Shown here one piece after another: positions 18,371 through 21,300 of a stretch of DNA of 64,000 bases (positions within the stretch are counted from its first letter, which is position 1; each line of letters begins with the position of its first letter). This DNA is from Saccostrea echinata. Lineage: Eukaryota. The notes below the pieces were generated by a model, which saw nothing but the letters and a program-made list of their open reading frames with translations, was not told the DNA's origin and made no database searches. The position numbers and the translations under genes were made by a program. The stretch spans positions 1,054,001-1,118,000 of the forward strand of contig NW_026889801.1 in the NCBI RefSeq assembly GCF_033153115.1. The letters run 5' to 3'.

Positions 18371-21300
18371 ATGTCAGCCGACGAAGATACTGAATTGAGA
18401 GATCTTGTTGCCCAAACCTTAGAAGCAAATGGTGTATTGGGGAAAATTAGGGTAAATATAACATTAAGAGCTGTCAAACAATGTCATATGAAAATGCATG
18501 TCTGATAGTAGTTTTAGTGAAAACTATGAATTAATCAAGATGAGGTGCTCTGAATTTTAAATCCAGGCATGCATGGACAAGAAAGCATGTGTGGAAATTA
18601 TGTAGAATCTCACAATTCTTTTATTTTAATATATATATAATAAAATAAGAAAAAAAAAGCGCGTAGGGTAATAGCTATTTAAAAGATGATAAAATATCTG
18701 GATTTTCAAAAAGGTTGCATGAGTGTTTAAGTTTTATTAAAAAAAAGGAGGGGGGGGGGGGGGTAATAGAACAATTGCAAGTAGAAAAACTCATTCAACT
18801 CAAAACAATTGGCAAAGCAATAGAATAAGTCACATTATTTTAAGATTTTCAATGTGTAAAACTGGACAAGAGGATGCAATAAGTAAGCTAGAGTAGTCTT
18901 CTATTTTTGTCTTGTACGTCTTGCCCTAGGATGGGACTACTAGAAACTTTTTTAAAACACTCTGAATTTCTGATCACAGCACACCCAAATGTTTGGTAGC
19001 ATAAAGAAAAGAAACTTTTTTTATCTTTCAAACTGTGGTTTGACCAGCAAAGGGACACAACTCTGTTTTCTTTTTGTGAAATGGGGATTGAATCATTGAA
19101 GGAAAATCTTATTGAAGGGCAGTTATAAAAACTATATGAAAGCAAAACAAGTTTTAATGATACAGCTTCAGTCACTTTATCAGTGTAACCATGTATATGA
19201 AATTGCACATGTGTTCTAAGATAAATATTTTTTTTTTAATCAGAATAGATCTACAGATCTATGGATCAAAACTTTATGTCTAAGTTTAATATTTTTTTTA
19301 ATTTTACAGGCACAGCTTCGAGCCAGTGTTTTCCTTGCTTTGGAGGAACAGGAACAAAATCAGGTTGGTAACAAATGAAGTCTTATTTTGCTTTCATAAA
19401 ATTATACCAGAGTAGTATGCCTTTTACTACTAAATACATGTATGTCAGAATTAGTTTTATGGAGTAAAAGTGCAGATGTTTAAAACCTTTTTTTTTGTTA
19501 TTCATACAGGACAAACCATTTGCTAATCCTGCATTAAGACAGTATTTAAGTACAAAAGAAGGTAAAATACTTCTTATAATTAATATCATATGTTATACTT
19601 GTACAACTGACAATATTTCTTTTTAAATACCAGTGATAGATTAATGAAATATTACTTCAAGAGATATTTTAGCCTATGACATATACAGTTTATGTTATTG
19701 CTATATGTTTATTTTTGTAAGGTCAAGCAGTTGCTGGACTGGTCAGAGAGTTCCTGGATTTCTTTCAGCTGGACTACACCTTAGCTGTTTTTGAACCAGA
19801 AGCTGGTTTGGTGAGTATCGAAAATGAAAACATTGACTTGCCAATCTGGCTAAAGCTCTGCTAAATTAATGTGATGATATACATAAAAAGTACACATTTA
19901 GGTGTTTGACTGTGACTATCACAGTTTCTTGAATATATGTACATGTAACTGATTTCTTTGAAGATTCAACAGGGTCCTAATAATGGAGGCAGACAGCAGC
20001 TAGCAAAGGAATTAAATATTTTAGAGTCAGATGGTCCCCCTAAAGGGCCCCTTCTTGGTGTTCTAGTGTCTGGGAATAAACAAACTGCACCTCTAACAAA
20101 AGTCTCTGATGTAAGTTCCTTAGTTTGAATAGATACTACTGATATTTTTATTAAATTAAAGAAAACTACATGTCCAATCTGATCTCTGCTTGTTTTTTAT
20201 TGATGCTAAAAGCCTACTTTAATTTTTTTTTTTTTAAGGAGCTAACACCTGCCCAAATTGCAGAGGCAAAGCAAAAGTTCAATTATTATGATAAGGTAAA
20301 TGTATGGACAATGTTTGCTTTGTACATGTTGTACAATTCAAACTGTAGACCCTCCAAATCTAGTTGGTGTCAACTTTGATTCATTTCAATTTCTCTTCAA
20401 TGTGTGAAATTTCAATATTACATTTAAAAAGATGTAATGGTAAGGCCACATAAAATATATTGTCATTTTAAGATTAAAGAGTGACAATGTATTGTGAACA
20501 TCAGTGTATAAGTTGAATACTTTTCTGTTAAAAATTAAGAGTTTTGTTAGAAAATTATGTATGACCTGGATTTGCTGCTTATTTATTTACCATATGTCTT
20601 TTTAGAATCACAGTGGGGATATAGATAAAAACGAATTACGGGAACTTTTTATTGATATCTGTCCTGGATTTAATAGGTAAGTGTGTCAAATAATGACTGT
20701 GAGGAATAGTGTTTTAAAGATTTTATGATATGTTCTTTTTTTGGAGCTTGAAACAAATCATCTCTATGACACCAAAGATGAATTTCTCCAGAAAATAATA
20801 GAAAATAATATTTAACAGGACTGATAAAGATTTAATACACCTTTAAGTTTAGTAAAATGCATGCAGTCATTTACTGTAAATTGTGTGATAAAAATGTTAT
20901 ATAAATAACTTTCCCTCTCTAAAATTCCAAGCATTTATCTCAGTGAAAAGGGGGGATAATGGTACATAATATTCATATACATGTACATAACAGTGTGGAC
21001 AATTTTTTATACTAGCTTATGATTTTCCTCCTAGAAATATGATAGAGAGATATGTGAATGAGGAATTTAAGGCAGCAGACACAGACTTTAGCAGCTGTAA
21101 GTACCCCCCCCCCCCTCCCCCGGAAAAAAAAAACTTGAACATTCATGTAGTGCTGTAAAAAATCTCTTTAAATAAATAAAAGTACAATTTTATTGCATAA
21201 TTTTCCTACAGCCAAATTGGGTGCCTCACGTAAGTAAACTGCTATTGCCAGAGTCTTAGATATACATGTAGTAGTATTTGTAATGTAACTGGAGAAAAAA

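What the first reader, a model, noticed from the sequence alone, without database searches (positions are those of the whole stretch)
21212..21229. 18-nt microexon that would break the second EF-hand loop of CEP43
Seen: strong acceptor (ttttcctacag) and donor (CAC|gtaagt) flank a frame-preserving phase 1-1 exon. Skipping gives the 12-residue loop DTDFSSCINFEE(F). Inclusion gives DTDFSSSKLGASRINFEEF, which inserts six residues into the loop. Inference: a splicing switch that toggles calcium binding of a centriolar/basal-body protein, possibly tissue-specific (neural or ciliated cells).
Basis: partly seen in the sequence, partly recalled or inferred. Interest (0 to 1): 0.7.

Follow-up and report, generated by a model that had tools for sequence, protein, structure and literature searches.

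The report
Mollusc microexon splits CEP43 calcium loop
This oyster gene for the centriole protein CEP43 has a real, optional 18-base exon that inserts six amino acids into the middle of a predicted calcium-binding loop; scallop, zebra mussel, snails and a chiton show an insert at the same spot, so molluscs likely use splicing to switch off or rewire an untested calcium sensor at the base of cilia.

Summary
The exon is real. 21212-21229 is an AG/GT, phase 1-1 cassette. One RNA contig (X3) joins exon 8, the 18-mer and exon 10; four runs skip it and one is uninformative. The window's four splice forms equal RefSeq Saccostrea echinata CEP43 isoforms X1-X4, so the exon is already annotated; my literature searches found no description. 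Inserts at codon 7 of EF-hand loop 2 occur in 13 of 24 named mollusc genera (bivalves, gastropods, a chiton) and in 0 of 38 non-mollusc genera. Outside oysters the 8-10-residue insert is conserved in sequence; the oyster 6-mer is not similar to it. Loop 2 keeps all side-chain ligand positions in 60 of 60 genera but fails the PROSITE consensus (no Gly6), so calcium binding is plausible, not shown. AlphaFold keeps the helices and bulges the insert out at low confidence. Best reading: inclusion disables site 2 of an undescribed calmodulin-lobe-like EF pair (0.5); rival: it adds a binding loop (0.3). Tissue is unknown; neural eMIC control has weak support.

The parts
21212..21229 (+). Optional 18-nt phase 1-1 microexon (exon 9); splits codon 7 of EF-hand loop 2 and adds six residues
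   Evidence: X3 record 6; inclusion forms identical to RefSeq XP_061195674.1 and XP_061195676.1
21194..21211 (+). Acceptor region with a TGC at -18 (eMIC/SRRM4-type position) and a 27-nt AG-free zone
   Evidence: only acceptor of 16 in the gene with TGC in -20..-4; background 99 of 610 intronic windows (16%)
21230..21235 (+). Consensus donor GTAAGT of the microexon
21035..21096 (+). Exon 8: entering helix and loop-2 positions 1-6 (21078-21095) plus the first base of codon 7
21961..22061 (+). Exon 10: rest of codon 7, loop-2 positions 8-12 and exiting helix
20239..20676 (+). Exons 6-7 (20239-20295, 20606-20676): canonical EF-hand 1, loop DKNHSGDIDKNE, unaffected by the microexon
19510..20110 (+). 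Exons 3-5: FOP_dimer/LisH domain that identifies the gene as CEP43 (FOP, FGFR1OP)
   Evidence: PDB 2d68, E 1.3e-17
23288..23368 (+). Second optional exon (81 nt) carrying an SQIP (SxIP-type) motif
   Evidence: RefSeq X1/X2; skipped in 4 of 4 runs
18371..30824 (+). Whole CEP43 coding span, 17 exons; the searched region has one match in the genome

Best explanation
The 18-mer is an alternatively spliced microexon that inserts six residues into the second loop of CEP43's EF-hand pair and likely disables that loop as a calcium site while leaving the predicted fold and the first loop intact. Shown: both mRNAs exist; the insert falls in codon 7, separating ligand positions 1, 3, 5 from 9 and 12, and supplies no acidic residue. 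Inferred: the skip form is a two-site calmodulin-lobe-like sensor on the centriole; the inclusion form has one site, so lower affinity or cooperativity and an altered calcium-dependent contact. Inferred more weakly (about 0.45): inclusion is high in a minority of cell types, most likely neurons or sensory ciliated cells, driven by the eMIC domain of Srrm234. An optional exon at this place probably dates to early molluscs; the oyster version is either a diverged descendant or a replacement.
For: Both forms in RNA contigs and in models of six oyster species. Loop 2 has D1 60/60, D/N3 60/60, S/N5 60/60, an oxygen-bearing residue at 9 60/60 and E12 60/60, with position 7 (backbone ligand per PMC9177970) free to vary. 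In all 15 inserts examined the last 12 residues before E12 do not start with Asp, so no canonical loop re-forms; 13 of 15 inserts have no D/E. Pfam EF-hand_7 score drops in 5 of 5 skip/inclusion pairs (42.4 to 35.5, 36.6 to 26.5, 39.5 to 27.1, 34.6 to 21.3, 31.6 to 22.4). AlphaFold: helices and the short strand contact persist, residues 196-205 fall under pLDDT 50 with the insert. Phase 1 is compatible in 12 of 12 species pairs and the only compatible phase in 7. Oyster inserts keep length but only 1-4 of 5 residues between genera against 62-70 of 76 in the flanks, as expected of a spacer. Magallana-type Logan proteins: 5 contigs include, 46 skip. eMIC exons exist in this genome.
Against: No binding data exist. 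Loop 2 fails the PROSITE consensus in all 60 genera at position 4 (F 56, L 4) and has Gly at 6 in none, so it may be weak, Mg-bound or structural. Non-oyster inserts are conserved in sequence (mean score 15.4 against 3.8 shuffled, 0 of 1000), which a mere breaker would not need. Direct inclusion evidence in this species' runs is one contig at depth 7. A Pfam score drop follows from any gap. AlphaFold models hold no ions and used alignments of only 29-30 rows. No insert seen in 11 of 24 mollusc genera, including 0 of 3 Pecten models and all listed Mytilus models. TGC occurs in 16% of random intronic windows; there is no CTAAY branch point and the AG-free zone is average.
Confidence: 0.5

Rival explanations
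1. The insert is a gain-of-function loop: loop 2 is structural or a weak site in either form, and inclusion adds an exposed hydrophobic-basic peptide (outside oysters roughly Y-x-S/T-L/I-T/M-P/A/E-K/R) that binds a partner or is phosphorylated.
For: Sequence conservation across seven non-oyster lineages, 0 of 1000 shuffles. Loop 2 non-canonical with near-invariant F4. The fold survives the insert. Microexons usually sit in surface loops and alter interactions (PMC7235277, passage read).
Against: Oyster inserts share nothing detectable with that motif (897 of 1000 shuffles score as high) yet keep the position and both isoforms. All five side-chain ligand positions are conserved in 60 of 60 genera.
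Confidence: 0.3
2. The insert retunes rather than removes site 2: a long non-canonical loop still binds calcium with changed affinity or kinetics.
For: All ligand residues remain in the chain; Ile8 and the strand contact persist in the model. Non-canonical loops of other lengths exist (PMC9177970, passage read). The MICU1.1 microexon raises calcium affinity, though from outside the EF-hands (PMC8909990, passages read).
Against: Insert length varies from 6 to 10 residues across molluscs, hard to fit with one geometry; the loop is low-confidence in the model.
Confidence: 0.1
3. In oysters the exon is a tolerated, nearly neutral minor isoform at an intron that easily gains exons; it has no adaptive role.
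For: Fast sequence turnover among oyster genera and no similarity to other molluscs; not seen in Mytilus, Pecten, Pinctada models; the whole EF pair is missing or too degenerate to detect in 97 of 150 unnamed CEP43-like representatives, some of them fragments.
Against: Length, phase and both isoforms are kept in four oyster genera; oyster inserts still resemble each other (0 of 1000 shuffles); inclusion is the assembled path in X3 and in 5 Magallana-type contigs.
Confidence: 0.1

Closest known systems
RefSeq Saccostrea echinata CEP43-like isoforms X1-X4 (XP_061195674.1 to XP_061195677.1)
   Same: Identical, residue for residue, to the four splice forms read from the window; X1 and X3 include the exon.
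   Different: Automatic models only: no function, tissue or conservation is attached to them.
Splice-controlled calcium sites: alpha-actinin EF-hand exons, CaV2.1 exons 37a/37b, OGDH exons 4a/4b
   Same: Splicing changes a calcium-binding or EF-hand-like element (PMC9177970 and PMC7235277, passages read).
   Different: Those swap duplicated, mutually exclusive exons. Here a cassette is inserted inside the loop, at codon 7, close to where human EF-hand genes have few exon splits, and in a centriolar scaffold.
MICU1.1 four-residue microexon
   Same: A microexon that retunes an EF-hand calcium sensor in some tissues (PMC8909990, passages read).
   Different: It lies far from the EF-hands and raises affinity; its regulator is RBFOX2.
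eMIC (SRRM3/4, Srrm234) neural microexons and retina microexons in cilia genes
   Same: Frame-preserving exon under 28 nt with UGC near the acceptor; retina microexons are enriched in basal-body genes (PMC8797185, PMC9303857, passages read).
   Different: Regulation untested here; CEP43/FGFR1OP has 0 mentions in the main text of PMC9303857 (its datasets were not read).
Calmodulin N-lobe
   Same: Closest solved match to the EF pair by sequence and fold (E 5e-10; TM 0.80 of target, rmsd 2.0 to 3ucw).
   Different: A single lobe fused behind a LisH dimer domain; second loop lacks Gly6; no solved CEP43 EF pair was found.

Membership tests
Alternatively spliced microexon | Under about 28 nt, canonical splice sites, frame-preserving | tested here: met
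Alternatively spliced microexon | Both inclusion and skipping seen in transcripts | tested here: met
   1 run includes, 4 skip, 1 uninformative, of 6
CEP43/FOP | FOP_dimer/LisH domain and orthology | tested here: met
   Pfam 78 bits, cut-off 29.4; quick tree recovers bivalves and gastropods as groups
Canonical EF-hand (loop 1) | PROSITE 12-residue consensus as quoted in PMC9177970 | tested here: met
   DKNHSGDIDKNE fits all positions
Canonical EF-hand (loop 2, skip form) | PROSITE 12-residue consensus | tested here: not met
   F at 4 and S at 6 are disallowed
Non-canonical calcium-binding EF-hand (loop 2, skip form) | Oxygen ligands at 1, 3, 5, 9, 12 and hydrophobic 8 in a helix-loop-helix pair | tested here: met
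   60 of 60 genera; model
Non-canonical calcium-binding EF-hand (loop 2, skip form) | Measured calcium binding | not testable with these tools
   needs ITC or NMR
Splice-controlled calcium switch | Isoforms differ in calcium binding or response | not testable with these tools
   only sequence and model arguments
eMIC-dependent neural microexon | UGC near the acceptor, long AG-free zone, strong branch point | tested here: inconclusive
   TGC at -18 present (background 16%); AG-free zone 27 nt is average; no CTAAY
eMIC-dependent neural microexon | eMIC regulator encoded in the genome | tested here: met
   SRRM_C match over two exons at L002, 30.2 bits, cut-off 27
eMIC-dependent neural microexon | Neural-enriched inclusion that depends on eMIC | not testable with these tools
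   runs have no tissue labels and are contigs

The most novel reading that the evidence does not exclude
CEP43 ancestrally carries an unrecognised calcium sensor at the centriole, and since early in their history molluscs have used a neural microexon to convert its second calcium loop into a protein-binding loop, giving neurons or sensory ciliated cells a basal body with different calcium control from motile-cilia tissues.
Probability: 0.2. Interest if true: 0.75.

Novelty: new member of a known kind. Interest (0 to 1): 0.47.

Why it matters
CEP43 is studied mainly in human and mouse cells as a microtubule-anchoring and ciliogenesis scaffold (PMC8227969 and PMC6300067, passages read). The EF pair seen here from molluscs to sharks and amphibians was not described in the papers my searches returned (listings and abstract starts only). 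A natural pair of isoforms that differ only inside one calcium loop makes the question of direct calcium sensing at the centriole testable with two short recombinant proteins. Isoforms that include or exclude metal sites are called scarce in PMC10853796 (passage read). If tissue-specific, it is also a rare traceable microexon across Mollusca.

Tried and rejected
Chance motif or annotation artefact: rejected by the spliced contig and by orthologues. Remnant of the 24-30-nt non-oyster exon in the same intron: best hits (21519, 21852-21861) score 14-15 and have no splice sites; rejected. RBFOX control: one TGCATG at 21459, about what 0.48 per kb predicts; no support. Tissue assignment: no run is on record as RNA or labelled by tissue; X1, X3 and X5 share a sample code but differ, which could be tissue or assembly noise. 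Insert in non-molluscs: none in 38 genera, but one search listed only the best 120 of 397 hits and gaps lower the score, so inserts are under-sampled; whole clusters were read for 10 non-mollusc taxa and showed none. Cephalopods, annelids and amniotes were not among named hits. Chiloscyllium (loop shortened) and partial Batillaria were left out of the 60-genus count. The tree is the quick one; the careful search did not finish. Four papers I wanted (eMIC origin, TON1, FOP-CAP350-EB1, SCaMC isoforms) are not held; a recalled precedent of an exon inserted into an EF-hand of SLC25A25 is therefore unverified. No supplements were read; VastDB-type tables could already list this exon.

Full report
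Observation. The window holds a 17-exon CEP43 (FOP, FGFR1OP) gene on the + strand, 18371-30824. The proposed exon 21212-21229 lies between a cag acceptor and a gtaagt donor, between exons ending at 21096 and starting at 21961, all in phase 1. It is the only cassette candidate in that 864-nt intron, where chance would give 0.02-0.07. The region has one match in the genome.

Transcript evidence. Six coded runs, held as assembled contigs, were laid. In X3 one contig carries exon 8 (35 nt), the 18-mer with no mismatch and exon 10 back to back, at depth 7.1. X2 and X6 (a related species, about 90% alike in exons) join 21096 to 21961 directly; X1 and X4 show the same joint and their record coordinates leave no room for 18 nt; X5 misses the junction. 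Contigs show presence only, so inclusion levels are unknown. The four splice forms built from the window (with or without this exon and an 81-nt exon) are identical to RefSeq S. echinata X1-X4: the exon is already in public gene models.

Conservation. A six-residue insert at the same place, with skip forms beside it, is modelled in S. cucullata, C. virginica, O. edulis, M. gigas and M. angulata; older M. gigas models show an eight-residue version. Among Magallana-type Logan proteins 4 representatives (5 contigs) include and 15 (46 contigs) skip. Longer inserts of 8-10 residues at the same codon occur in Argopecten (3 of 5 models), Dreissena (6 of 8), Aplysia (7 of 8), Physella, Haliotis, Babylonia (3 of 5), Nucella, Elysia crispata and the chiton Liolophura (2 of 2), and in an unnamed mollusc protein that falls outside bivalves and the main gastropod groups (P0304; cephalopod is my guess). 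That is 13 of 24 named mollusc genera and 0 of 38 non-mollusc genera; 11 mollusc genera showed none, many seen as one model only. Boundary codons fit phase 1 in 12 of 12 species pairs. Seven non-oyster lineages share a motif (score 15.4 against 3.8 shuffled, 0 of 1000), while oyster inserts do not resemble it (897 of 1000) and change fast among themselves. So the slot is old, but homology of the oyster exon to the older exon rests on position alone.

The domain. CEP43 here has an EF-hand pair behind the LisH domain (Pfam EF-hand_7 42.4 bits), closest to the calmodulin N-lobe. Loop 1 is canonical. Loop 2 keeps D1, D/N3, S/N5, an oxygen-bearing 9 and E12 in 60 of 60 genera from molluscs to amphibians, but has F/L at 4 and never Gly at 6, so it fails the PROSITE consensus quoted in PMC9177970. 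The insert falls in codon 7, the backbone-carbonyl ligand, and separates ligands 1, 3, 5 from 9 and 12; no new Asp-led 12-mer forms in any of 15 inserts. AlphaFold keeps all four helices and the strand contact in both forms, with residues 196-205 under pLDDT 50 when the insert is present; the inclusion model still matches EF-hand lobes. The models contain no ions.

Mechanism. Most likely (0.5) inclusion removes or much weakens site 2 and leaves a one-site lobe. Shown: two mRNAs, position of the insert, conservation. Inferred: calcium binding by loop 2, its loss, and any effect at the centriole. The main rival (0.3) is that the insert is a new binding or phosphorylation loop, which the conserved non-oyster motif favours; the two can coexist. 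Retuning (0.1) and near-neutrality in oysters (0.1) are less likely.

Regulation. The exon has the size and a TGC at -18 typical of eMIC targets (PMC8797185 and PMC9303857, passages); it is the only one of the gene's 16 acceptors with TGC there, but 16% of random intronic windows have one, and branch point and AG-free zone are unremarkable. The genome encodes the eMIC region of Srrm234 (the gene name is my reading of the SRRM_C match). Neural inclusion is therefore a lead at about 0.45, not a result.

Comparison and novelty. Splicing of calcium sites is known (alpha-actinin, CaV2.1, OGDH, MICU1.1, passages read), mostly by exon swaps or inserts outside the loop. Searches for CEP43 or FGFR1OP with EF-hand, microexon with EF-hand, TON1/FOP/LisH/EF-hand and microexon with either gene name returned no listing that describes this exon or this domain; I saw listings and abstract starts only, and the library lacks most subscription papers. 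The scan's own index had no look-alike stretch. Verdict: real, already annotated, undescribed; a new member of a known kind, interest 0.47.

Noticed in passing
window 23288-23368: A second optional exon (81 nt) encodes SQIP, an SxIP-type motif (EB1-binding label recalled); the motif recurs in other bivalves, gastropods and Lingula, and as SKIP in the ray Narcine. Skipped in 4 of 4 runs.
   Followed up: partly
window 20239-22061: The EF pair of CEP43 is intact from molluscs, nemertean, brachiopod, echinoderms, hemichordates and amphioxus to sharks, early ray-finned fish, coelacanth and amphibians, yet only 53 of 150 unnamed representatives have a detectable copy, several degenerate. No amniote was among the 120 listed hits; human FOP lacking it is recalled, not tested.
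   Followed up: partly
proteins P0071-P0074 (Chiloscyllium): These shark models lack four residues of loop 2, possibly a separate splice or annotation variant hitting the same loop.
   Followed up: no
proteins P0304 and P0315: Two unnamed sister mollusc proteins: one has the EF pair with a 9-residue insert, the other lacks the EF pair altogether.
   Followed up: partly
L002:1474-1617 and 2056-2242 (G000 C54): Two exons encoding the SRRM_C/eMIC region, followed by a stop.
   Followed up: partly
window 21311-21409 and 21504-21608: Parts of the intron downstream of the microexon align at about 85% to a contig of the related species X6; could hold regulatory elements or just reflect close kinship.
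   Followed up: no
window about 26300-27800: A tandem repeat with a unit of roughly 155-160 nt inside a CEP43 intron, seen by eye.
   Followed up: no
window 15450-15640, minus strand: An exon that reads like an armadillo/importin-alpha repeat (by eye, untested), from a gene that appears to diverge from the CEP43 promoter.
   Followed up: no
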